Origin: Aridibacter sp.
Lineage (GTDB): Bacteria > Acidobacteriota > Blastocatellia > Pyrinomonadales > Pyrinomonadaceae
DNA: 64,000 nucleotides
Assembly (NCBI GenBank): GCA_035513035.1
Contig: DATKCW010000011.1
Coordinates: 28,893 to 92,892 of the forward strand
Direction of reading: 5' to 3'
Below are positions 2,279 through 52,511 of the stretch, piece by piece; position 1 is the first letter of the stretch, and the number at the start of each line of letters is the position of its first letter. The position numbers and the translations under genes are program-made. The notes beneath the pieces were generated by a model. That model was not told the origin of the DNA, made no database searches, and saw nothing but the letters and a program-made list of their open reading frames with translations.

Positions 2279-2892
2279 CAGTCATACCTTTCAAGCTCTT
2301 CCGGATCCAGGTCAAGCCAGCTTGCTTCCATCTCGACCGGCCCGCCAAAATCGTTCATTCTGATACCCATGCTGACGAAGCTCGCGAGCCTTGCCGCCTT
2401 CCTGCTTATCTCCGGGTTCGTGAGCCGCTCAGTTTCCGGCGCTGTGGCAAGGAGAAGGCTTTTCGTAATGTAGACCTTGTTCTCCGGACCTACGTCGAAG
2501 ATCCCCGTCCCTATGTATCCCTTGTCGTCAGCACTGTAGAAGACCTTTTCGTAGTTTCCTGTCCCGACCAACTCGCGGATGTCGGCGATCGCGCGATCGA
2601 TCAACTCCGTAAAGTGCTCGTCGATCCCCTGGAATCCGCGGCCGGCGGAGCCGGTCGGGATGCCCGCCGCCCTTGGCGGGTCTTCGCACTGGCACGGACG
2701 GATGACGGCGTTGCCGCCTCCTTCCGTGCACGCCCAGGGCGGTCGCGGATCGGACCGGAACGCTAGGAACTGTTCCTTATTGTCGTTGAAAATGAACAGC
2801 GCGTCGGAGTGCTCCGGCCGTTCGATCATCCATCGAAAGTCGCCGAATTCGCCCGGACGGCGAAACGTCACGCCGGTCAGCTCAACGCTCAT
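2278..2892 (-). CDS. conserved hypothetical protein, first gene of a two-gene cassette with the phosphatase
   Basis: 204 aa ORF. Motifs FIFNDN, EGGGNAVIR and AAGIPTG are reminiscent of macro/SLOG-type nucleotide-binding loops but are not diagnostic. Its stop overlaps the next start. Confidence 0.6.
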   Translation of the reverse strand: MSVELTGVTFRRPGEFGDFRWMIERPEHSDALFIFNDNKEQFLAFRSDPRPPWACTEGGGNAVIRPCQCEDPPRAAGIPTGSAGRGFQGIDEHFTELIDRAIADIRELVGTGNYEKVFYSADDKGYIGTGIFDVGPENKVYITKSLLLATAPETERLTNPEISRKAARLASFVSMGIRMNDFGGPVEMEASWLDLDPEELERYD

Positions 2893-3169
2893 TGGTCTCC
2901 TGAATTGAAGTTAGTGGTTCGGGATAGCCATAAACATATCCTCAAAGAACTTGTAGAAGCAAGAAAATTGTTACAAGCAAAAGCGTTATGGCCGGAAGGA
3001 CAAAACAGCCGGCGCATCCGGAATGCGCCTCGTCGTGCTCATACGCGGCATAGAAGACCTCCGTGTCGTCTTCGGGATCGGGTTCTTCGAACATGTTCTG
3101 ATAATGGCTCTGTGAGGAGCAAAACGGAAGTGCGGGAAACGGACCGGGGGAATCCTCTTTGTACGACAA

Positions 3170-3410
3170 GCTTCAGCTTGTCGCCCGCACCGTGAGGACT
3201 GAGAGAAAAGGACTGAGGACTGAGACCGAGTGCGAGCGGCTCTGACCGTGTTGACTGGAGCGCAGGCAGCCTTGCCTGCACTGAGCGCGAAGCGCGAACT
3301 GTACGATAAGCTTCAGCTTGTCGCCCGCTGAAAGGCGGGAAAGAACGGGAAACAGATTATCACAGATGGATTTTGGGATTCGTGTTTTCTGTGTCCTTTC
3401 TTGATTCCGT
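3170..3410 (+). repeat. ~240 bp composite repeat (copy with 55 bp internal insertion)
   Basis: Collinear with 12308-12520: TGTACGAYAAGCTTCAGCTTGTCGCCCGC, GAGGACTGAGAGAAAAGGACTGAGGACTGA, CGAACTGTACGATAAGCTTCAGCTTGTCGCCCGC, GATGGATTTTGGGAT, CTGTGTCCTTT. Confidence 0.8.
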
Positions 3411-3436
3411 GCGATTCGGAGATATGATTAGCGGGT

Positions 3437-3531
3437 GCCGCCGCTACGCGGCTCAGGATCCCGGGGGCGCCGCTTCCCGTGGGTTCCGCTTCGCTCCACC
3501 CACGGCTAAAAGCAGGTCGCCCCTGCGGGGC
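3437..3531 (+). repeat. three-hairpin ~95 nt interspersed element (copy 1)
   Basis: GCCGC-TAC-GCGGC ... CCGTGGGT-N-ACCCACGG-CTAAAAGCA-GCCCC-TGC-GGGGC. Confidence 0.7.
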
Positions 3532-3667
3532 TCTTCCGGACTCCTGTCTCCTGACTTCTGAGTTCTTTAGGTTATGTCGCCTGCTTCGCAGGCTCGATCG
3601 TTTGCCCGGCATCCTCCACGTTCCGCTTCGCTCCACGTTGAGCTGGATGATGGCGCCTGCTTCGCAG

Positions 3668-3826
3668 ACTCGATAGACGCGACAGACCCGATAGACTCGA
3701 TAGACCCGACAGACCCGATAGACTCATTCCGTCGGCGCTTTTCGCTTCGCTCAATGCGGGCAGGCTGCCCGCGCTCCAGTCACCAGACCCGATAGTCTCG
3801 ATAGACTCCCGACTCAACGGACTCAC
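3668..3826 (-). repeat. nonamer minisatellite (inverted orientation) split by a 45 bp word
   Basis: GACTCGATAGACGCGACAGACCCGATAGAC... The interrupting word CGCTTCGCTCAATGCGGGCAGGCTGCCCGCGCTCCAGTC (3738-3782) recurs at 24558-24600 and, inverted, at 29948-29992 and 3246-3295. Confidence 0.75.
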
Positions 3827-3827
3827 C

Positions 3828-3852
3828 GGGCGGGCACAGGTTCCGCCCCTAC
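3828..3852 (-). repeat. GTAG-REP hairpin
   Basis: Reverse complement GTAGGGGCGGAACCTGTGCCCGCCC. Confidence 0.7.
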
Positions 3853-3857
3853 ATGAA

Positions 3858-4721
3858 CTAGTAAAGCACCGAAGGAGTGTACGCTCCCTTCGGTTTCGAA
3901 TACTCGCCCATCACCATCAGCGAGAGCGGCATCACGACCTTGAGTCCGGCATTCAGGCACCAACGGAAGAGGTCCGAACGGCGGGTCGGAAGGAGGAATC
4001 GCACGGGCTCGCCTGTTAGTTCGCCTGCTCCCGCGATTAGGTCTTCAAGATCAGAATCGGTTTCCGCGACCGAGTGGTTCAGGTGCCACGATCCCGGAGC
4101 CGACATATATCCGACGATGCGGGCGTCGCGCTCGGCGACCACCGACGGAAATGCTCCAAGGAAACTCGCGAGTTCCCTCTTGCGGGTGAATCCGGTAACC
4201 GAGCGGCCGATCTCCCCGCACGCTTCAAGATCACCTTCTTCCATTTGCCGGACGACCGTTTCCCGCCTGCGGACGTTGGCCGGTTTGCCTTCCACGATCA
4301 CGAGCGGATCGACGATGTCGAATCCAAGCCTTGTGTAAAGCGACATCGAAGCCGAATTGTAGGCCGCCTGAACCAGGCGGATCCCCGGCGCGTCCTTGCC
4401 TCTTTCGATTACGGCTTCCATAAGCTTGCGGCCCGCGCCTTTCGCCTGGACCGACGGGTCCACGGTGATCGGGCCGACGCCTTTGATATCGTCGTGCTCC
4501 CAAAGAAAGTTCGAGCCGACGAATTTGCCGTCGATCTCTGCCGCAACACCGTAGATGTCGGGGCTGCCGATCGCCATCTCGGCGAAGCCTTCCGCCGATC
4601 CAACATCGGGAAAGTCGTACGGGAAGTTATGCCTGCCGGCGATCCCCGCGAATGCTTCGTACAGGATCCGCCCGCACTCGGGGGCGTCTTCTTGTGTGAT
4701 CTCTCTTATTTGCATCTTCAT
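3858..4721 (-). CDS. GNAT family N-acetyltransferase (two GNAT-like halves)
   Basis: Listed ORF 3858..4949 trimmed to MKMQIREITQED (ATG 4719-4721; alternative ATG 4713-4715 has better spacing to GGAG). The upstream 76 codons are translated repeat DNA. Acetyl-CoA loop-like QAKGAGRKLMEAV. Confidence 0.8.
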   Translation of the reverse strand: MKMQIREITQEDAPECGRILYEAFAGIAGRHNFPYDFPDVGSAEGFAEMAIGSPDIYGVAAEIDGKFVGSNFLWEHDDIKGVGPITVDPSVQAKGAGRKLMEAVIERGKDAPGIRLVQAAYNSASMSLYTRLGFDIVDPLVIVEGKPANVRRRETVVRQMEEGDLEACGEIGRSVTGFTRKRELASFLGAFPSVVAERDARIVGYMSAPGSWHLNHSVAETDSDLEDLIAGAGELTGEPVRFLLPTRRSDLFRWCLNAGLKVVMPLSLMVMGEYSKPKGAYTPSVLY

Positions 4722-5307
4722 TTCTCCACTTCTGGCGGTTGTCGAATTTGAACGCGCGGTGATAACGGGAAAGATGTCAACGGAGCAGGGAGCAGAGGCG
4801 TATGATACCGACATCCGCCGCGGGTGCCAAGGAAAAAAGAAGGACAAGGAACAACACGGATGGATCTTGGGATCCGTGTCGCGGCGAGAGTCGTGTTTTC
4901 CGGTTGTCCGATAAGCTTCAGCTTGTCGCCCGCCGTCAGGCGGGAACACGGGAAGAGACAGGATGGACAGGATAATCAGGATGATATCGCCGATGTTCAG
5001 AATGTCTCCGGGTAACCGGCAGCGTCAAAATTCAGAAGCGGTGATCCTGCCTAATCTGTCCATCTTGTTTCCTCTTCATTCTGTCATTAAAGAAGTCCCT
5101 GCGGTGTTATGCAGAAAAGACCGCCCGACGGGAGAACAGAGTCCGGCTTCGGCATCGCCGTAGGCAGACCGCGGACCCGGATTCCCGTCGGCGGAAGAAA
5201 CCAAGGACAAAGCAAATCACTGGTGTAACGGTCCCTAAAACATTTGAAGGGATTGGGATCCCGACCGGCTCACACGCGCCGGGCACAGGAAACGAACAGG
5301 AGAAACT

Positions 5308-5991
5308 ATGAAGTATATGAAACAGGCGATCTTCGCCCTTGCGCTCGCCGCTTTCGCGATCGCGGCTTCGGCTGCGACAGCCGCGGCGCAGGACAATTAC
5401 AGATCCGAAGCACGTAACGTCTCCGGATTCACGGGCGTAGACATCGGCGGAGCGATGGAAGCCGAGATTACCGTCGGCGGAAGCTACGAGGTGATCATCG
5501 AGGCGAAGGAGGACGTGCTTCCGAGGATCATCACCGAGGTTCGCAACGGAAGCCTCGTCGTCAAACACGACAAAGCGTGGAAAGAGAAGACGGACTGGAA
5601 GCAAAGGGGCAAGGTCAAGGTAACGGTTTCGCTTCCGACGCTCGACAATCTCGATATCTCCGGCGCTTCGGCCGCGAAGGTGACCGGCGTCAACAGCGAC
5701 AAGATCGACATCGACGTCAGCGGAGCGTCTTCGGTCTCGATCGACGGGAGCGCGCGGAGCGCGACGATCGACATCAGCGGCGCCTCGAATATAAAGGCGA
5801 TCGGATTCACGACCGACACGGCGGACATCGACGCGAGCGGCGCGAGCAGTATCAAGCTGAACGTCGTCAGCGATCTTCGGGCGGACGCTTCGGGAGCCAG
5901 CAGTGTGTGTTACGGAGGGAGCCCGAGGGTCCAGAAGGACACGTCAGGATCGGCTTCGGTAAGCGGCGGCTGCGGGGCAGTTGCTCAATAA
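5308..5991 (+). CDS. secreted DUF2807 / head-GIN (putative adhesin-like beta-helix) protein
   Basis: Signal peptide MKYMKQAIFALALAAFAIAASA, repeated ISGAS/VSGAS/ASGAS beta-helix rungs, AGGAGA RBS upstream. Confidence 0.75.
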   Translation: MKYMKQAIFALALAAFAIAASAATAAAQDNYRSEARNVSGFTGVDIGGAMEAEITVGGSYEVIIEAKEDVLPRIITEVRNGSLVVKHDKAWKEKTDWKQRGKVKVTVSLPTLDNLDISGASAAKVTGVNSDKIDIDVSGASSVSIDGSARSATIDISGASNIKAIGFTTDTADIDASGASSIKLNVVSDLRADASGASSVCYGGSPRVQKDTSGSASVSGGCGAVAQ

Positions 5992-6276
5992 TCATCGAAG
6001 AGTATCAACCGCAGAGGGCGCAGAGGGTTGAACCGCAGAGCACGCAGAGAGCGCAGAGATTTTTTGGGCACGCGAGCCCGCGCATTAAGAATCCCGATTC
6101 GACCTAAAGGACCGTAAAAGGATATTCGCTGGTCGGAGACTACCGCTAATAGAATTCCCCGTCGAAAGTCATTTCGACCGACTAACACAATCCCAAAAAC
6201 CCTCTGCGTTCTCTGCGCCCTCTGCGGTTTAAATCTCTTTACGCTCTTGCGTGTTCAAACGGATTCATCGAAATCA

Positions 6277-6870
6277 CTAACACCCGTTGTGTTTCTTCCA
6301 CATTTCCGGGTCGTGGCCCTCGGGGATGTTCTTGCACGGATCGCCCGAACCGTAGCCCCGCAGCTCGTTGTACTTATTAATCTGTTCGGCAGTGAGGATG
6401 CTGGGCGTCTTCAGATGCGCGGACAGATGGACGAACCGCAGGCGGCTTCGAACCTCGCCGATCTTCAAAAGCTTCTCTTCCAGATTCTTCGCGTTGACCA
6501 ACTTCTTTGTGTATAGCTCGTCCAGTTCCTTTTCAAGCTCGATCAGCTCCACGCCGAGCGGTATCGCAGCGGACCTCATCTCTTCAAAGAGGTTCTTGAT
6601 CTCGGTTTGCTGGGCCGCGGTGAGACCGATCTTGTCCTTCATCTCAAGAAGGTGGCTCGGGCCGGGGTAGCCGTTCAGTTCGGCAGCTTTCGCGAGACCC
6701 CAGCCTTTCCCGTTCTTCAACTCCTCAATGTCCTCTGCCGAGAGGCTCTTGATATCGCGCGATTCCTGGCCGGCATATTTTGAAACATCCTGCGGCAGCG
6801 CCCACGATAAAAATAGCGAGACGCAAAAAGCTACCAGAAGGGCATTGAACCCGAAATTTGTTCTTCTCAT
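6277..6870 (-). CDS. periplasmic Spy/CpxP-like helical protein
   Basis: 197 aa with signal peptide. Helical LTAAQQ/LTAEQ motifs as in Spy/CpxP/ZraP-type periplasmic proteins. Confidence 0.55.
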   Translation of the reverse strand: MRRTNFGFNALLVAFCVSLFLSWALPQDVSKYAGQESRDIKSLSAEDIEELKNGKGWGLAKAAELNGYPGPSHLLEMKDKIGLTAAQQTEIKNLFEEMRSAAIPLGVELIELEKELDELYTKKLVNAKNLEEKLLKIGEVRSRLRFVHLSAHLKTPSILTAEQINKYNELRGYGSGDPCKNIPEGHDPEMWKKHNGC

Positions 6871-6986
6871 GTTTTGCCTCTGGATTATTATAGTGATGCC
6901 GTCGCGTTCATTCCCTTGTAATCTAATTTCTCTTGGAGACCGAGTGTTGACGCCTCTTGTTGGAGACTTTCAATAGCGATCAAATT

Positions 6987-8411
6987 ATGCAAAAGATAAC
7001 AAAAACCAATTTTATTCAGTACCTTAGTTGTCCGCGCGAGTTCTGGATGAAGTTCAACCATCCTGCCAAGCTCCCTTCGCCCACCCTTGATGAGCAGTTC
7101 CGTATGAAACAGGGTTACGAGGTAGAGAACGCGGTGCGGCGGCTTCTCACTCAGAGGGGAGACAGACCGTACGATTTTCAAAGGTTTGTCTTCGACGGTG
7201 ACCTTGCGGCAAGGATCGATGCCCTCGCTGAGAAACCGGACGGATCGCACGAAATTATCGAGGTGAAATCGATAAAGTCCATCCCCGAAGACGCTCCGGG
7301 CAGGACAAAGAAGCTGGAAGAATATATGTACGATCTGGCTTTCCAGCTTTACGTCGCGCGCAATTCGGGCCTGAACATCACCTCGGTTGCACTCGCAACC
7401 CTTAACCGTGACTTCGTGCTCGGCGACGAACTTGATCTTGAGCAGCTCATAGCGTTTGAAGACCACACGGAGGCCGTAGAAGTGCTGCAGCAGGATGTCG
7501 AATCGCTGATCAGCGCGGCGCGGGAGTATCTGATCACAGGTCCCGGCGATGACTTTGAGAACTTGTGCGGCGACAAACTGAAATGTGTTTACTTTGAAAA
7601 CTTTGTGCCCGGCCTGCCGCACCCGAACATCTTCAACCTGCCGAGGATAACCGAGAAGCGGCTTGATCCTCTTATTTCGCAAGGCATTCTGGCCATCAGC
7701 GACATCCCTCCGGACGCGTCGCTTACGGACAGTCAGTGGGATTGGGTCCGTTTCAAACTCTCTGAAGAAAAACAGATCGACAAGGAAGCTATCGACGAAG
7801 CGCTCGACTTGGAGTATCCTCTGTATTTCCTGGACTATGAGGCCGCAAATCCGGCGATCCCCGTGATCAAGGGCATGTCGCCATACCAGCAGATCACCTT
7901 CCAGTATTCGGTGCACATCCGAAATGCGCCCGGCGAAGAACCGGTGCCTTTCGGCTTCCTTTCCGACGGCAGCGACGAACCGACCAGAAGCGTCGCAGAG
8001 GAACTTTCCCGGGTCATCGGCGACACGGGTAATGTGGTCGTTTGGTTTGAGAGATTTGAGAAAGAAAGGAATGCGGAGATGGCCGCACTGTATCCGGAGT
8101 TCGAGGCCTTTATGACCTCGGTCAACGAACGCGTGTTCGATCTATACGAAGTATTCAACAAAGGACTTTACAAGGATCCGGGTATGGCGAACAACAAACT
8201 GAAGACGGTTCTGCCGACGCTTGTTCCCGAACTAAGTTATTCGGAACTGGACATCAGGAACGGCGGCGTGGCTTCGGTCAGATGGTTCGAGGATGTCTTT
8301 CGCGGAGACGACCAGGAGCGAAAGCGGCTGACGCTCGAGAGCCTCAGGGAATACTGCGCCCTCGATACGCTGGCGATGGTGAGGATAATGGATTACCTGG
8401 CGGCATTGTAA
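6987..8411 (+). CDS. DUF2779 domain protein (PD-(D/E)xK-like N part plus RNase H-like exonuclease part)
   Basis: ORF 6957..8411 trimmed to the first ATG (MQKITKTNFIQYLSCPREFW). YFLDYEAANPAIP...FQYSVH is typical of DUF2779. Confidence 0.7.
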   Translation: MQKITKTNFIQYLSCPREFWMKFNHPAKLPSPTLDEQFRMKQGYEVENAVRRLLTQRGDRPYDFQRFVFDGDLAARIDALAEKPDGSHEIIEVKSIKSIPEDAPGRTKKLEEYMYDLAFQLYVARNSGLNITSVALATLNRDFVLGDELDLEQLIAFEDHTEAVEVLQQDVESLISAAREYLITGPGDDFENLCGDKLKCVYFENFVPGLPHPNIFNLPRITEKRLDPLISQGILAISDIPPDASLTDSQWDWVRFKLSEEKQIDKEAIDEALDLEYPLYFLDYEAANPAIPVIKGMSPYQQITFQYSVHIRNAPGEEPVPFGFLSDGSDEPTRSVAEELSRVIGDTGNVVVWFERFEKERNAEMAALYPEFEAFMTSVNERVFDLYEVFNKGLYKDPGMANNKLKTVLPTLVPELSYSELDIRNGGVASVRWFEDVFRGDDQERKRLTLESLREYCALDTLAMVRIMDYLAAL

Positions 8412-20088: not shown

Positions 20089-20267
20089 CGGAAACCTCTC
20101 GGGACGGATTTCGGGCAGAGCCTTTTGAAAGAATCTGCGACCGGCAGCCTGGGGGCGGCTGTAACCCGGTGCGGGAAAGTAGCTTGCGTGTTCGGGGGAA
20201 GGTTAAACCGAGGGGAGGACGTTAGTCAATCGTGAATCGTAAATCGTGAATCGTGAATAGAGTTGGC

Positions 20268-20481: not shown

Positions 20482-20740
20482 GCCGAATTCGCCGTGCTTA
20501 AGGATTGAACCGCAGAGAAGACAAGAAAAAAACAGGACACGGATCTTCACAGATTCTGAAAATAACTCTGGCGCTTGCCGAAAGAGTTATCCTGAAACAT
20601 CCGTGTTGATCCGTGTCCTGTCTCTTCTCTGCGCGCTCTCTGCGGTTGATCTTCTTATTCCCGTCGCTACCGCTCCGGGTACCGATTCCCTCTATTCACG
20701 ATTCACGATTTTCTATTCACGATTCACTATTTACGATCGA

Positions 20741-48944: not shown

Positions 48945-49676
48945 TTAATTGTTCTCCTTGGGCAGTTCCCCAAGCATTTTCTGCATAAGTCTGATCTCCG
49001 CGCGCTGGCCGCTGTCGACATCCGTCGCGAAATTAAAAAGTTGGGCGTCCTGGCCCGCGCCGGCGGCGGCAAACAGGTCCGTCACCATCACAAGCGCACC
49101 TATGTGGTGCTGGATCATCCCGGAAAGGAACAGCCTGTCGAATTCCACGCCTTTCGCGATCGCTAGCTCCTCCATCTGCTTCGGAGTCAGCATCCCGGGC
49201 ATCTGGTGGTCCGACATATCCATTTTCCCGTCCGGCATATGATGGACCGCGTGTTCGCCGCCCTTCATATCCATCCCACCCATCGAGATCTTCTCGCCGC
49301 GGGATTCGAGCCAGCGTTTCATAAACTCGATCTCTTCCGCTTGAGTGTGGCTGATGCGCGCGCCAAGTAAAAGCAGATCCTTGTTGTCCGTGCGGTCGGC
49401 CATCAGCGCGACCATCTCGACCGCCTGCGCGTGATGGACGATCATTCCCTGCATGAACTCGACATCCTTTTTGGAGCCCGGAGGCAGTTTCGCTGTCGTC
49501 GATGCGGGAAGCTGCTTCGTCGGCTGTCCGGGAGCTCCTGGCTGGACAACGACCGGATCGTTCGGATCGACCTGCTGTGCACTTATAGACGCAGAAAGGA
49601 CCGCCAACAGGACGGCACTCGCCGCAAGCCCGAAGAAGATAGCGATCGGGCGACTTCTCTTTAACCGATTATTCAT
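48945..49676 (-). CDS. DUF305 domain protein (secreted, His/Met-rich)
   Basis: FMQGMIVHHAQAVEM and GMIQHHIGALVM duplicated DUF305 helices. His/Met-rich insert HHMPDGKMDMSDHQMPGM. Confidence 0.8.
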   Translation of the reverse strand: MNNRLKRSRPIAIFFGLAASAVLLAVLSASISAQQVDPNDPVVVQPGAPGQPTKQLPASTTAKLPPGSKKDVEFMQGMIVHHAQAVEMVALMADRTDNKDLLLLGARISHTQAEEIEFMKRWLESRGEKISMGGMDMKGGEHAVHHMPDGKMDMSDHQMPGMLTPKQMEELAIAKGVEFDRLFLSGMIQHHIGALVMVTDLFAAAGAGQDAQLFNFATDVDSGQRAEIRLMQKMLGELPKENN

Positions 49677-49938
49677 TGAGCGTTCAATTTACCACAAACG
49701 AGGGTTTCTTCGATGCGGACACGCGTACGATCCGTTGGAGCCCTTGCCGGGAACCACGTCTGTACGCTTCCGGGGCGGGATTGGTTCTCGGTCTTCCTGC
49801 CTGAGTCGTGGGAATTCGAGGGGACAGCAAAAAGCCCTGCCGTCGTGACCGGGTCTTTCAGATCTGGCCGCACTAAAGGGGTTGAGTCGTTAATGTATAT
49901 CCCCATGAAATCAAATTCGACCAGGCCAAGATCTTTTG

Positions 49939-50301
49939 TTACTTGGATATATAGAATCTAAGAATTCGGCCCGAGCATTTGTCCACATCTACATACCCGC
50001 TGCCACCGCCTTCGATCCCATCTCCAAGGCCTTCTTTGAGCTTGAATTTAACGAGAAACCGGTCCCCTTCGTCTTCAACAACTATGCGAAGCCTGTCCAA
50101 GTCTGTATCGTTCTTAACGAAATCTTTGGCAATATCAACGGCCTCTTTCTGAGAGACCTCCATATCCCCTCCCTGACGCCGGAGAACACATTCGGGGGGT
50201 TGATTCTCGCACCGCGAGAGCGCTGCCTCAGGCGGCACTTCGTGCGAATAAGGAGCACAGTTGGCCAACAGCAGGCACGTCATTAGAAATGTGTGTTTCA
50301 T
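49939..50301 (-). CDS. small lipoprotein, hypothetical
   Basis: Trimmed to MKHTFLMTCLLLANC (lipobox). 120 aa, lies in the AT-richer islet. Confidence 0.5.
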   Translation of the reverse strand: MKHTFLMTCLLLANCAPYSHEVPPEAALSRCENQPPECVLRRQGGDMEVSQKEAVDIAKDFVKNDTDLDRLRIVVEDEGDRFLVKFKLKEGLGDGIEGGGSGYVDVDKCSGRILRFYISK

Positions 50302-50475
50302 TGTTTTCCGCTTAGCGTTGTGTTCACGGGATCTCTGTCGTGAGACCCGTATAACCGGGATTTGATTCATCGAGATGGCGAACGCTCCATCATAGACCAT
50401 TCCATTCGTTCGCCAGATGACGTATAATGAACCGTCAGATGGCGAACAGTTGAGTTTCGCGGGATTTTGCTAAAA

Positions 50476-50961
50476 ATGGTACTGGAAAAGACGGAATCTT
50501 TGAAGAAGTCGAGCGTAACAAGTGCACAAGGTATGAGCGCGGTTTCTGACAGGGCTTTGATCGATAAGTATTTGGGTATCACCGCACCGAATACAAAGAC
50601 GTTGATGTCTCAAATCGAAAGGGGCTTTCCATTCGACGCCTTCAGGCACTTCCAGAGATCTACAGGTTTACAAGCTTCGAGCCTTAAGCTCGTGATCGGA
50701 ATAAGGCCCCGGACGTTCGACAGGCGAAAGAACGCCAATCGATTTACGACCGCAGAGTCTGACCGGCTTGTTTCCATCGCCCGTCTCTTTGTAAAGGCAA
50801 CGAGACTCTTTGAAGGTGATAAGGAGGCAGCCAGGAGATGGCTAACTTCAGATAGCAGGGCATTCGGAGGACTGACTCCTCTTGAAATGGCAAAGACAGA
50901 GACGGGAACCAGAGAGGTTGAAAAACTGATCGGACGTCTGGAGCAAGGAGTGTTTACCTAG
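50476..50961 (+). CDS. type II antitoxin, Xre/MbcA/ParS family (DUF2384 toxin-binding domain)
   Basis: C-terminal FGGLTPLEMAKTETGTREVEKLIGRLEQGVF is typical of DUF2384. Immediately precedes the RES gene. The listed TTG 50467 is an alternative start. Confidence 0.8.
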   Translation: MVLEKTESLKKSSVTSAQGMSAVSDRALIDKYLGITAPNTKTLMSQIERGFPFDAFRHFQRSTGLQASSLKLVIGIRPRTFDRRKNANRFTTAESDRLVSIARLFVKATRLFEGDKEAARRWLTSDSRAFGGLTPLEMAKTETGTREVEKLIGRLEQGVFT

Positions 50962-50975
50962 GTGTTTGTCGGATA

Positions 50976-51437
50976 ATGCTGTCTTGCTTCCGAATCGTTA
51001 AAGAACAGTTCGCAAATGACGCATTCAGCGGCGACGGAGCATATGAGTTCGGGGGGAGATGGAATTCGCCCGGATCTCGTGTCGTATACGCATCCGAATC
51101 GCTCGCTCTGGCTTGTCTGGAGATGCTGGTTCACCTGGACAAAGCATCGCTTCTCCGGAGCTATGTCTTCATAGAGGCCCGGTTCGACGAAGGCCTCGTC
51201 AGGGACATCGAAAGCCTGACAGCCCTTCCCGCCGACTGGCACCATTCTCAAGGGTCGATCGAACTCCAGTCGGTAGGTGATGAATGGATCGTGAGCGGAA
51301 CCAGCGCGGTCCTCAGGGTTCCTTCCGCGGTGATCCCGAAAAGCGTTAACTACCTGATCAATCCGGAGCACGAAGATTTCAAGAGTATTGCCTTCTCGGG
51401 CATTGCACCGATCGATTTTGATCCGAGATTGAAGTGA
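50976..51437 (+). CDS. RES domain toxin (NAD+-targeting RES family)
   Basis: 153 aa. GGRWNSPGSRVVYASESLALACLE, with R..E..S residues in the usual spacing. Confidence 0.85.
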   Translation: MLSCFRIVKEQFANDAFSGDGAYEFGGRWNSPGSRVVYASESLALACLEMLVHLDKASLLRSYVFIEARFDEGLVRDIESLTALPADWHHSQGSIELQSVGDEWIVSGTSAVLRVPSAVIPKSVNYLINPEHEDFKSIAFSGIAPIDFDPRLK

Positions 51438-51465
51438 TCAGATCTGCGAGGACGCGTTCGAAGTG

Positions 51466-51494
51466 AAAAGCCCGGACATCGTGACCGGGCTTTT
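51466..51494. terminator. bidirectional hairpin between the RES and HigA genes (copy 2 of the tRNA-Asn terminator family)
   Basis: AAAAGCCCGG-ACATCGTGA-CCGGGCTTTT between convergent genes. Confidence 0.6.
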
Positions 51495-51531
51495 CATCTG
51501 ACTGCGACAAATGGCCGCCGGGATAATCGCC

Positions 51532-51918
51532 TCAGATGAACAAAGCCGCAGAGACATTGAACCGCTCGGAAAGGCGCTTCGCCTGTTCCTTGCTGATCTC
51601 GCGCTTTCCGTTGACCACCTGTGAGACCCTTCCGCTGGATCCGAAGAGGTCGACCAGATCGGCCTGCTTCAGGTCGTTCGCCTCCATAAGGAACAGCAGC
51701 CTGGAGCGAGGCGTCGTCTTCGTCTTGATGGGAAATGCTTCCTTTTCGTAGTTCTCAACGAGCACCGCGAGGAGTTCCAAGAGCTTGAGTTCGTCAGGCG
51801 AGAGCCTCTCTTTGTCCATCAAACGGTTCACAATCTCCATCGTTCTTTCGTATTCTTCCTCCGATTTGATCACTCCCGGGACCGTCTCGCTCAAGAGAAC
51901 TGCATATTCGTTTTTCAT
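51532..51918 (-). CDS. higA: HigA-type antitoxin (HTH-XRE)
   Basis: 128 aa. C-terminal HTH (LKQADLVDLFGSSGRVSQVVNGKREISKEQAKRLSERF). GGTGAGGAG RBS, downstream of higB. Confidence 0.8.
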   Translation of the reverse strand: MKNEYAVLLSETVPGVIKSEEEYERTMEIVNRLMDKERLSPDELKLLELLAVLVENYEKEAFPIKTKTTPRSRLLFLMEANDLKQADLVDLFGSSGRVSQVVNGKREISKEQAKRLSERFNVSAALFI

Positions 51919-51978
51919 TACTCCTCACCTCTTCGAACTCCGACTTGGAAATGCGTGCGTCTAGACGCTTTGAAGTGA

Positions 51979-52275
51979 TTACTCACAGCCTTCTTTCCAT
52001 TTGTCCGAGTCGTATTCCGAATGTGTCAGCAGCATTCGAACCATCACGATCGACGCCTGAAAATTGATCTTCGCAATCAGCCTGAACTTGTTTCCGCCAA
52101 TGTTGAATACATAGCAAGAACCGACCCTGTCACAATTGCGGAACGTCTTGCGAATATCGATCAGACTCTCCCATTCAGCATCTATAACGTGTTCGATCCA
52201 ATGGTCCGCCGAGCTGCGAGCCCGGGAATGGGTTCGGCAGAAGGTGTCGATGTTCTTTAAGCCAAGTACCTTCAT
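51979..52275 (-). CDS. higB: HigB-type toxin (mRNA interferase)
   Basis: Trimmed to MKVLGLKNIDTFCRTH...NIGGNKFRLIAKINF...THSEYD. The listed ORF extends falsely through the tRNA gene. Confidence 0.8.
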   Translation of the reverse strand: MKVLGLKNIDTFCRTHSRARSSADHWIEHVIDAEWESLIDIRKTFRNCDRVGSCYVFNIGGNKFRLIAKINFQASIVMVRMLLTHSEYDSDKWKEGCE

Positions 52276-52400
52276 TCGGTCATCGCCGCTCCCGCCGACG
52301 CCAACTATCCTACCAAAACGGCAGGATAGATTCAAATGAAAACTGCCGTTTTCGTAGCAATTTTCTAACGGTTCTCGGTGGGGTTGGACAAATCCAAAGC

Positions 52401-52430
52401 AAAAAGCCCGGCCGTCGCGACCGGGCTCTT
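52401..52430 (-). terminator. rho-independent terminator of tRNA-Asn
   Basis: On the minus strand, 6 nt after CCA: AGAGCCCGG-TCGCGACG-GCCGGGCTTTTT. Confidence 0.7.
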
Positions 52431-52436
52431 CAGATG

Positions 52437-52511
<75 letters not shown>

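What the first reader, a model, noticed from the sequence alone, without database searches (positions are those of the whole stretch)
49829..52437. TA-rich islet downstream of tRNA-Asn delimited by three copies of the tRNA terminator region
The tRNA-Asn terminator hairpin (minus strand CCA-CATCTGAAGAGCCCGGTCGCGACGGCCGGGCTTTTT, 52401-52436) recurs at 51466-51505 and 49829-49885. By eye, about 75-85 percent of positions match over ~35-45 nt.

The distal copy is preceded by AGTGCGGCCA, which resembles the tRNA acceptor end TGTGGAGCCA. This is the signature expected of an att-type duplication from integration at a tRNA 3-prime end.

The copies separate two modules, both visibly AT-richer than the flanks: HigBA (51532-52275), and Xre-RES plus a small lipoprotein (49939-51437). 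No integrase is present. This suggests either serial integration followed by integrase loss, or modular accretion of TA cassettes by terminator-to-terminator recombination.
Basis: partly seen in the sequence, partly recalled or inferred. Interest (0 to 1): 0.6.

Follow-up and report, generated by a model that had tools for sequence, protein, structure and literature searches.

The report
Toxin-antitoxin islet bounded by tRNA-terminator copies
Downstream of a tRNA-Asn gene in an Acidobacteriota genome lies a 2.5-kb AT-richer accessory islet with two toxin-antitoxin pairs and a rare small lipoprotein gene, and its three boundaries are related copies of the tRNA's own terminator; this is a real but fairly ordinary scar pattern of gene insertion and exchange at a tRNA hot spot.

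Summary
Three direct copies of one 48-nt unit lie at 52398-52445 (A), 51462-51509 (B) and 49826-49873 (C). The unit is the tRNA CCA end, an 8-nt spacer, a hairpin and a T run. These are its only copies in the 3.79-Mb assembly and are far more alike than unrelated terminators.

- **A** is the working tRNA-Asn terminator and has orthologues in relatives.
- **B** is a strong two-way terminator between the convergent HigBA and Xre-RES operons.
- **C** is a decaying relic next to a rare lipoprotein gene seen at this locus only here.

The islet is AT-richer (50.9% GC, 1.6th percentile) and has no integrase.

Near relatives carry the same TA pairs in the same order, and no exact empty site was found. 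B and C lack the tRNA 3' half that true integrase events leave at this tRNA in the genus. However:

- The islet's history disagrees with its flanks (dS 1.2 to over 2, against 0.6).
- tRNA-Asn is a proven integration hot spot in the genus.
- One relative has a cassette flanked by a terminator-only duplication.
- tRNA-Lys and tRNA-Gly islets in this genome show the same layout, tRNA-Lys with an empty site in a relative.

Verdict: a new member of a known kind, of modest interest.

The parts
52437..52511 (-). tRNA-Asn (GTT), the anchor of the variable slot
   Evidence: ARAGORN; Rfam tRNA, 70.3 bits
52398..52445 (-). Copy A: the working tRNA-Asn terminator unit. It comprises the CCA end, spacer CATCTGAA and hairpin 52401-52432 with a T run.
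   Evidence: Repeat family D1. Folds at -25.2 kcal/mol, z -4.3. It is the only one of the three copies flagged by the terminator scan. Orthologous to the unit directly after the tRNA in G011 and after the displaced tRNA fragment in G006, at 80-87% identity.
52316..52352 (.). Inverted repeat AAAACGGCAG / CTGCCGTTTT upstream of higB; a candidate HigA operator in the HigBA promoter region
   Evidence: Read from the sequence. The same stretch matches G006 in inverted orientation, 23 nt at 91%. The operator function is inferred.
51979..52275 (-). HigB toxin (RelE-like), 98 aa
   Evidence: Pfam PF09907, E 1.3e-25
51532..51918 (-). HigA-type antitoxin with a C-terminal HTH, 128 aa
   Evidence: Pfam HTH_3, E 1.6e-5. 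It lies downstream of the toxin, which is the HigBA gene order.
51462..51509 (-). Copy B: two-way terminator (hairpin 51466-51494) between the convergent HigBA and Xre-RES operons
   Evidence: Repeat family D1. Folds at -23.4 (minus strand) and -23.0 (plus strand) kcal/mol, z about -4. The terminator-unit profile hits it at E 4.9e-8 in tRNA orientation. A hairpin of the same kind follows RES in all other alleles.
50976..51437 (+). RES-domain toxin, 153 aa
   Evidence: Pfam PF08808, E 6.2e-29. Closest database relatives are named RES family NAD+ phosphorylase.
50467..50961 (+). Xre/MbcA/ParS-type antitoxin. The start is uncertain, between 50467 and 50533.
   Evidence: Pfam PF09722, E 6.2e-17, and PF20432, E 8.3e-11. 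Relatives align from 50533.
50410..50447 (.). Conserved promoter/operator of Xre-RES: imperfect palindrome TTCGCCAGATGACG ... CGTCAGATGGCGAA around TATAAT
   Evidence: 87-89% identical in G006, G011 and G003, while the coding sequence is 70-75%. The operator function is inferred.
49939..50301 (-). Rare small lipoprotein, 120 aa, with signal peptide and Cys (LLANC). Seen at this locus only in this genome.
   Evidence: No Pfam hit. One weak hit in 251 genomes of the class. Only itself in the 5.8-billion-protein word-index search. Three remote homologues, all small lipoproteins, in the exhaustive search.
49826..49873 (-). Copy C: decaying relic of the terminator unit. It reads GCGGCCA, then spacer GATCTGAA, then a hairpin with two uncompensated stem changes.
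   Evidence: 83% identical to A. Profile hit at E 1.2e-8. Its 12-nt CCA-spacer junction CCAGATCTGAAA is identical to the tRNA-terminator junction of G011 and G006. Fold is not better than shuffles, z -0.3.
49677..49800 (.). Spacer upstream of DUF305, where the discordant history begins about 22 nt from the DUF305 start codon
   Evidence: G000 is 48% identical to G006, G011 and L110, which are 86-95% alike among themselves. It is 72% identical to L111. In the DUF305 gene G000 is 83% identical to G006, G011 and L110, and 74% to L111.

Best explanation
Window 49826-52445 is a small accessory islet in the variable slot between tRNA-Asn and the DUF305 operon of an Acidobacteriota genome. It holds two type II toxin-antitoxin operons (HigBA and Xre-RES) and a rare lipoprotein gene.

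Its three boundary repeats are paralogous copies of the tRNA-Asn terminator unit: CCA end, 8-nt spacer, GC hairpin and T run.
- A terminates the tRNA and shields the HigBA promoter.
- B terminates both convergent TA operons. A hairpin of this kind holds that position in every allele of the locus.
- C is a non-functional relic.

The copies arose when DNA was inserted at the junction between the tRNA 3' end and its terminator. The recombination duplicated the terminator, not the tRNA body, so older copies were pushed away from the tRNA. It was either single-crossover homologous recombination of a circular piece carrying a terminator copy, or site-specific recombination supplied in trans. The islet, or the matching islet of its nearest relatives, was later swapped for a divergent allele by recombination in the flanks.

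Shown:
- the relatedness and uniqueness of the copies;
- their folding;
- the synteny;
- the discordant divergence;
- hot-spot behaviour in relatives;
- terminator-only and terminator-plus-tRNA duplications that flank integrase-less cassettes elsewhere.

Inferred:
- the recombination mechanism;
- the order of events;
- the role of the TA pairs, which is probably stabilising the slot or phage defence.
For: - **The copies are related and unique.** Three copies, A-C 40 of 48, found nowhere else in the genome and far above the terminator background. The terminator-unit profile hits C and B at E 1e-8 and 5e-8 in tRNA orientation.
- **C is tRNA-derived.** It carries the exact 12-nt tRNA-terminator junction of G011 and G006.
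- **A is orthologous to the relatives' tRNA terminator**.
- **Function of the copies.** A and B fold strongly and C does not. A hairpin of this kind follows RES in all alleles.
- **Discordant history.** dS between G000 and G006/G011 is 0.59-0.67 for DUF305 and GT2. It is 1.2 to over 2 for Xre, RES, HigA and HigB. The identity matrices and the breakpoint about 22 nt upstream of DUF305 agree.
- **Composition.** Islet GC is in the 1.6th percentile.
- **Hot spot.** ICE-like and smaller elements with tyrosine integrases sit at tRNA-Asn in G001, G008 and G024. G003 has an ICE-like element there with a coupling protein and a recombinase-domain protein. Each brings its own terminator. The host terminator is displaced in G006 and G018.
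- **Terminator-only duplication elsewhere.** In G011 a three-gene cassette lies between the intact terminator and a degraded terminator relic next to LigB.
- **Same layout in this genome.** At tRNA-Lys there are 4 terminator copies; the site is empty in G011 and holds one cassette in G006. At tRNA-Gly(gcc) a 3.5-kb islet is flanked by such repeats.
Against: - No exact empty site for this islet was found. The nearest relatives carry the same TA modules in the same order.
- The cassettes that differ between G000 and G006 (LigB, the 134-aa protein) are not flanked by two hairpins in G006.
- C is the most distal copy yet looks younger: it diverges from A by about 0.19 per site, against 0.6 for flank dS. 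It is unique to G000. Simple 'oldest lies farthest' serial insertion does not predict this.
- The acceptor-end similarity is only 7 of 10, and no tRNA body is detectable.
- No recombinase can be assigned.
- Which lineage had its islet replaced is unresolved. The spacer suggests the G006 group.
Confidence: 0.55

Rival explanations
1. Classical serial integration. Each module arrived as an element with a tyrosine integrase that recombined inside the tRNA-Asn 3' half. B and C are old attR sites. The integrases and the tRNA fragments were later deleted.
For: This process is directly seen at the same tRNA in relatives. Elements with a tyrosine integrase lie beside a 46-54-nt tRNA fragment in G001, G008 and G024, and small integrase-less remnants lie in G006 and G018. 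tRNA-Lys and tRNA-Gly islets in this genome keep such fragments at 93% identity.
Against: No tRNA 3' half is detectable upstream of B or C (P 0.57 and 0.98). Identity falls abruptly from about 85% to background within 10 nt of the CCA end. The integrase elements of the genus carry a different terminator type (TTAGCCCGACC...), whereas B and C are of the host type. Two separate clean deletions of the fragment, each sparing the adjacent spacer, would be needed.
Confidence: 0.15
2. Local copying without insertion. The terminator was copied within the locus, by gene conversion or short duplication, onto existing terminators of the TA operons and the lipoprotein gene. The copies then mark transcription-unit ends, not insertion scars.
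For: A hairpin with the same stem follows RES in every allele, so B's position is old and functional. Within a genome the loops of the tRNA terminator and of the post-RES hairpin resemble each other: CG(T/C)GA-type in G000, and GAAAT or its complement in G006 and G011. This hints at homogenisation. A and C are more alike than neutral divergence since the G006 split would allow.
Against: C carries the tRNA CCA-spacer junction, which a terminator conversion tract need not include. C is decaying and is not maintained as a terminator. C is tied to a 0.5-kb segment present only in G000. The loop evidence rests on very few sites.
Confidence: 0.2
3. Chance or convergence. These are three independent intrinsic terminators that look alike because AAAAGCCCGG...CCGGGCTTTT is a common terminator design in this genus.
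For: The genome holds 26 GCCCGG...CCGGGC hairpins, about a dozen of them with A and T runs. The same stem follows tRNA-Lys.
Against: Loop and flanks also match: 8 of 9 loop bases and 13 of 16 flank bases between A and C. Pair scores lie 4-6 SD above the terminator background. There are three copies within 2.6 kb, against about 12 such hairpins in 3.8 Mb.
Confidence: 0.03

Closest known systems
tRNA-linked genomic islands built by repeated integration, with leftover att repeats. Examples are the tycheposon islands of Prochlorococcus (bioRxiv 10.1101/2020.12.28.424599) and tandem accretion with integrase-less cis-mobilizable elements in streptococcal ICE systems (reviewed in PMC5704250).
   Same: It lies directly downstream of a tRNA gene that is a proven hot spot in the genus. 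It has direct repeats derived from the tRNA end region, deviant composition, variable content among relatives and no integrase of its own. The tycheposon preprint describes new elements pushing older ones further into the island and leaving partial tRNAs behind.
   Different: The repeated unit here is the terminator plus at most about 10 tRNA bases, not the 46-54-nt tRNA 3' half. No exact empty site was found. The TA modules are shared with near relatives.
Chromosomal integron cassette arrays that carry toxin-antitoxin cassettes
   Same: The layout works alike. A row of small gene modules is each closed by an imperfect hairpin next to a fixed anchor, and TA pairs sit among the modules.
   Different: There is no IntI-type integrase in the window or beside the islet. 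The modules carry their own promoters and face both ways. The hairpins are plain intrinsic terminators. Comparison with the attC consensus was by eye only.
HigBA and Xre-RES (ParST / MbcTA type) type II toxin-antitoxin systems
   Same: Pfam domain matches, gene order and small gene sizes all fit. Upstream palindromes fit autoregulation.
   Different: Activity is untested. The alleles are 70-78% identical to the nearest known relatives.

Membership tests
tRNA-integrated genomic island (tyrosine-integrase type) | Lies directly at the 3' end of a tRNA gene | tested here: met
   The islet starts at the terminator of tRNA-Asn, 52437-52511.
tRNA-integrated genomic island (tyrosine-integrase type) | Flanking direct repeats that contain the tRNA 3' part (att core) | tested here: not met
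   The repeats cover the terminator and at most about 10 tRNA bases. No tRNA 3' half lies upstream of B or C. True events in relatives duplicate 46-54 nt.
tRNA-integrated genomic island (tyrosine-integrase type) | Integrase gene at one end | tested here: not met
   None of the 9 ORFs scanned in and beside the islet matches an integrase family in Pfam. PF00589 hits lie only on contigs C23, C52, C30 and C36.
tRNA-integrated genomic island (tyrosine-integrase type) | Deviant composition | tested here: met
   GC is 50.9% against 57.25 +/- 2.2%, the 1.6th percentile. GC3 of the lipoprotein and Xre genes is 0.54 against a genome mean of 0.73.
tRNA-integrated genomic island (tyrosine-integrase type) | Empty site in related genomes | tested here: inconclusive
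   G018 lacks both TA pairs and G003 lacks HigBA, but neither is an exact empty site. G006 and G011 carry both pairs. Closer relatives were not found.
Intrinsic (rho-independent) terminator | Stable GC-rich hairpin followed by a T run | tested here: met
   A folds at -25.2 and B at -23.4 / -23.0 kcal/mol, z about -4, with T runs. Copy C fails: z -0.3 and two stem mismatches.
HigBA type II toxin-antitoxin | RelE-like HigB toxin gene upstream of an HTH antitoxin gene | tested here: met
   PF09907 at E 1.3e-25 and HTH_3 at E 1.6e-5. The toxin gene comes first, with a 60-nt gap.
Xre-RES (ParST/MbcTA type) toxin-antitoxin | Xre-like HTH plus C-terminal toxin-binding domain antitoxin, followed by a RES toxin | tested here: met
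   PF20432, PF09722 and PF08808, with the genes 14 nt apart.
HigBA and Xre-RES toxin-antitoxin systems | Toxicity that is neutralised by the partner | not testable with these tools
   Needs expression tests in a laboratory strain.
Integron cassette array | IntI integrase with attI next to the array, and attC sites with the conserved core | tested here: not met
   No tyrosine recombinase lies on this contig. By eye only, the hairpins show no attC-type core.

The most novel reading that the evidence does not exclude
In this Acidobacteriota genus the terminator hairpin behind a tRNA gene is itself a recombination site, rather than the tRNA body. Small integrase-less gene modules, each carrying a terminator copy, are inserted, excised and swapped at these hairpins. 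This would build integron-like arrays anchored on tRNA terminators, either by an unrecognised recombinase acting in trans or by short-homology recombination.

The evidence consistent with this is:
- the copies B and C here;
- the terminator-only relic in G011;
- the differing extents of the duplications at tRNA-Lys.
Probability: 0.12. Interest if true: 0.7.

Novelty: new member of a known kind. Interest (0 to 1): 0.33.

Why it matters
The locus shows how a tRNA hot spot in a little-studied phylum gains and exchanges small defence or addiction modules without any resident integrase. It also shows that in this genome the duplicated boundary sequence routinely includes the tRNA's terminator.

If terminator hairpins really act as exchange points, that would be a simple and overlooked route for modular gene flow. 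As it stands, the finding is a well-documented example of known island dynamics and is useful mainly for annotation.

Tried and rejected
- **Relic of copy C in relatives.** Local alignments against shuffles of the DUF305-Xre spacer gave P 0.68-0.98 for G006, G011 and G003. L110 gave only P 0.02-0.08, resting on one 9-10-mer. The terminator-unit profile found nothing there.
- **tRNA 3' half upstream of B or C.** Not significant.
- **Closer relatives in metagenome contigs.** A search with the GT2 protein gave a best hit of 76% amino-acid identity, a locus like G003. No empty site was gained.
- **Junction pattern across the genus.** Only G011 and G000 matched exactly, so it told little.
- **Second hairpins flanking the LigB and 134-aa cassettes in G006.** None of this family.
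- **Near-identical donor of the RES toxin.** Among 5.8 billion proteins the best hit is 78% identical, so no donor was found.
- **Rfam.** Only the tRNA. A weak isrN hit at B lies far below threshold.
- **A 10-mer (GGTTCTCGGT) near both A and C.** Suggestive, but it did not extend in formal alignment.
- **Apparent terminator copies of tRNA-Gln and tRNA-Met on other contigs.** These proved to be unrelated low-complexity or tRNA-like matches.
Full report
**What is in the sequence.** tRNA-Asn(GTT) lies at 52437-52511 on the minus strand. Its 3' end runs into a 48-nt unit made of the CCA end, an 8-nt spacer, a GC-rich hairpin and a T run.

The repeat finder reports this unit three times in direct orientation:
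- A at 52398-52445;
- B at 51462-51509;
- C at 49826-49873.

A and C match at 40 of 48 positions. B is 65% identical without gaps and about 70% with a 2-nt gap.

I collected 81 other terminator-like hairpins from the genome as a background. Their pair scores average 21.1 +/- 3.0 of 48. A-C scores 40, and A-B and B-C score 33.5. Only 2 and 7 of 3240 background pairs reach these values.

A pattern that includes the loop finds only these three copies in the 3.79-Mb, 54-contig assembly. The unit is therefore neither a chance match nor a dispersed repeat.

**The genes between the copies.**
- Between A and B lies HigBA: HigB (PF09907, 51979-52275) and an HTH antitoxin (51532-51918), both on the minus strand.
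- Between B and C lies an Xre/ParS-type antitoxin (50467 or 50533 to 50961) and a RES toxin (50976-51437), both on the plus strand.
- Also between B and C is a 120-aa ORF on the minus strand (49939-50301).

This ORF has no Pfam match. It gave one weak hit in 251 genomes of the class and only itself in the word-index search. The exhaustive search found three remote homologues. All are small proteins with a lipoprotein signal and the same C-terminal domain.

The flanks are core-looking genes: a DUF305 protein with a propeller protein on one side and a family 2 glycosyltransferase on the other.

Islet GC is 50.9% against 57.25 +/- 2.2% for windows of the same length, the 1.6th percentile. No integrase lies in or next to the islet. 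The four PF00589 hits of the genome are on other contigs.

**What the three copies are.**
- **A** is the tRNA's own terminator. The same unit follows the tRNA directly in relative G011, and in G006 it follows a displaced tRNA fragment, at 80-87% identity. It folds at -25.2 kcal/mol.
- **B** sits in the 94-nt gap between the convergent HigA and RES genes. It folds equally well on both strands, at -23.4 and -23.0 kcal/mol. A hairpin of the same kind follows RES in every other allele of the locus. The position is therefore old and the hairpin is in use.
- **C** has two uncompensated stem changes and folds no better than shuffled sequence, z -0.3. It is a relic. Yet it keeps the exact 12-nt junction CCAGATCTGAAA found between the tRNA and its terminator in G011 and G006.

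A profile built from the orthologous terminator units hits C at E 1.2e-8 and B at E 4.9e-8 in tRNA orientation. It aligns only the last 5 or so tRNA bases. No tRNA 3' half can be detected upstream of either copy.

**Relatives.** The genome is an Acidobacteriota MAG (names). Its class also holds genomes of 3.7 Mb in two contigs. The slot between tRNA-Asn and DUF305 reads as follows, in order from the tRNA.

| Genome or contig | Content of the slot |
|---|---|
| G006 (complete genome) | 2.9-kb integrase-less insert, tRNA fragment plus host terminator, LigB dioxygenase, HigBA, 134-aa secreted protein, hairpin, RES, Xre |
| G011 | Terminator, three unknown genes, degraded terminator relic, LigB, then as in G006 |
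| G003 | About 65-kb conjugative-type element, tRNA fragment, about 10 kb of other genes, RES-Xre |
| G018 | 4.4-kb insert, tRNA fragment plus terminator, 134-aa gene, DsbB, a thioredoxin-fold (DsbA-like) protein |
| L110, L111, L112 (Logan contigs) | Xre-RES next to DUF305 (L110, L111); RES followed by the 134-aa gene (L110, L112) |

The TA pairs are thus shared with near relatives and are not a recent arrival. No exact empty site exists among the genomes at hand. Compared with the G006/G011 layout, G000 lacks LigB and the 134-aa gene, which are also absent from the rest of its assembly. It alone carries the lipoprotein gene with copy C.

**A history of its own.** Between G000 and G006/G011, synonymous divergence is 0.59-0.67 in DUF305 and the glycosyltransferase. 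It is 1.2 to over 2 (saturated) in Xre, RES, HigA and HigB.

In DUF305, G000 groups with G006, G011 and L110 at 83% identity, and those three are 83-90% alike among themselves. In Xre and RES, G000 is as far from them (70-75%) as from the outgroups G003 and L111. Meanwhile G006, G011, L110 and L112 stay 83-96% alike.

The switch lies about 22 nt upstream of the DUF305 start codon. In the next 100 nt G000 is 48% identical to the G006 group and 72% to L111. So the islet of G000 and that of its nearest relatives are not vertical counterparts. One lineage had its islet replaced by a divergent allele. The spacer suggests the G006 group, but this is not settled.

**The hot spot.** Partial tRNA-Asn copies of 46-54 nt, starting in the anticodon loop, lie 4 to 86 kb from the tRNA in many genomes of the genus and family. 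Beside them are tyrosine integrases in G001, G008 and G024. Type IV coupling proteins and recombinase-domain proteins lie next to the tRNA in G003, with look-alike ORFs in G001 and G008.

Each such element supplies the tRNA 3' half and a terminator of its own type, TTAGCCCGACC... The host-type terminator ends up behind the displaced fragment. This proves that insertions at this tRNA push terminators away from it. It also shows that B and C, which are host-type and lack the tRNA half, were not made by these elements as we see them.

**Terminator-bounded cassettes elsewhere.**
- **G011, tRNA-Asn.** The three-gene cassette lies between the intact terminator and a degraded terminator relic joined to the LigB flank. 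The duplication is about 33 nt of hairpin with no tRNA fragment.
- **This genome, tRNA-Lys (contig C31).** Four copies of its terminator follow over 7.2 kb.
  - One copy carries a 48-nt tRNA fragment and is 93% identical over 86 nt.
  - One carries a decayed fragment.
  - One carries about 100 nt of the far flank instead.
  - No integrase matched among the ten ORFs scanned.
  - In G011 this site is empty: enolase-family gene, flank, hairpin, tRNA-Lys, purA. In G006 it holds one cassette between two hairpins.
- **This genome, tRNA-Gly(gcc) (contig C40).** A 3.5-kb islet is flanked by the tRNA 3' half plus terminator at about 93% identity.

So 3 of 47 tRNA loci show the layout.

**How it most likely works.** I read the copies as scars of insertions at the junction between the tRNA end and its terminator, where the terminator itself was duplicated.

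The differing extents of the duplicated piece fit single-crossover homologous recombination of circular DNA better than one fixed integrase core. Across loci that piece is the hairpin alone, the hairpin plus tRNA half, or the hairpin plus far flank. A recombinase acting in trans cannot be excluded.

A and B now serve as terminators, and C decays. The TA pairs probably hold the slot against loss or act in phage defence. That is inferred from what such pairs do elsewhere, not shown here.

Points that do not fit neatly:
- C is farthest from the tRNA yet looks young (about 0.19 changes per site from A).
- C is unique to G000.
- The cassettes that differ from G006 are not bracketed by two hairpins there.

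Gene conversion among neighbouring terminators is a live rival. Classical integration with later loss of integrase and tRNA fragments is less likely. Convergence is very unlikely.

**Comparison with what is known.** The closest known kind is the tRNA-linked island built by repeated integration, with partial tRNAs left behind and older elements pushed inward. This is described for tycheposon islands (10.1101/2020.12.28.424599). Integrase-less cis-mobilizable elements are reviewed in PMC5704250 (listed, not read).

The locus meets the criteria of position, composition and variable content. It fails those of integrase and tRNA-containing repeats. It works somewhat like an integron array with TA cassettes but is not one. 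I file it as a new member of a known kind. The terminator-only duplication is the one feature worth following.

**Limits.**
- The relatives are species representatives, and many are fragmented.
- No genome closer than about 85% nucleotide identity was available.

Noticed in passing
L021 (G000 contig C31:54000-68000), 3353-10789: tRNA-Lys(TTT) is followed by a 7.2-kb integrase-less islet cut into three cassettes by four copies of its terminator. One copy carries a 93%-identical 48-nt tRNA fragment, and one carries a duplicate of the far flank. The site is empty in G011 and holds one cassette in G006. Cargo includes a 721-aa protein with a weak caspase-domain hit.
   Followed up: partly
L115 (G000 contig C40:10500-17300), about 2850-6540: tRNA-Gly(gcc) is followed by a 3.5-kb islet with ORFs of 559, 186 and 133 aa and no evident integrase. 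It is flanked by a roughly 85-nt repeat of the tRNA 3' half from the anticodon loop plus the terminator, about 93% identical. The distal copy sits next to tRNA-Cys.
   Followed up: partly
L024-L029 (G003, G001, G008, G024): Large elements of 65-86 kb are integrated in tRNA-Asn. A TrwB/TraD-like coupling protein and a recombinase-domain protein lie next to the tRNA (Pfam-confirmed in G003, look-alike ORFs in G001 and G008). A tyrosine integrase lies next to the distal partial tRNA in G001 and G008. G024 has a 12.7-kb island with a tyrosine integrase.
   Followed up: partly
L017 (G011) 5559-8222: Three genes without any Pfam match (263, 252 and 210 aa) lie between the tRNA-Asn terminator and a degraded terminator relic. 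They may be an unknown accessory or defence cassette.
   Followed up: no
window 50410-50447: The Xre-RES promoter/operator palindrome around TATAAT is 87-89% conserved in relatives whose coding sequence is only 70-75% identical. Part of it (GATGGCGAAC) recurs at 50374-50383.
   Followed up: no
L021 12994-13139, and G000 contig C17 38506-38634: Tandem arrays with a 14-nt period (ACTGCTCACCGCTT-like) lie upstream of purA. Closely similar arrays with a 28-nt register occur at many places in G000, G006, G011 and G013.
   Followed up: no
window about 20228-20258 and 20701-20736 (G000 C11:49120-49150 and 49593-49628): Two members of a dispersed hairpin-like repeat family of about 35 nt. The family gave about 30 matches across the genome when the sequence downstream of tRNA-Thr(cgt) was used as query.
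   Followed up: no
L016 (G006) 6820-7010: Three short C-run/G-run hairpins (CCCCCCGTTTTAACGGGGGG and variants) lie in the spacer between HigA and the 134-aa gene. They belong to a different small repeat family.
   Followed up: no
L111 2306-2400: In this allele the spacer between the divergent DUF305 and Xre genes holds a very stable GC-rich hairpin (-37 to -41 kcal/mol) with A and T runs. It sits at the position where G000 has copy C. Homology to C is not significant (P 0.08 against A).
   Followed up: partly
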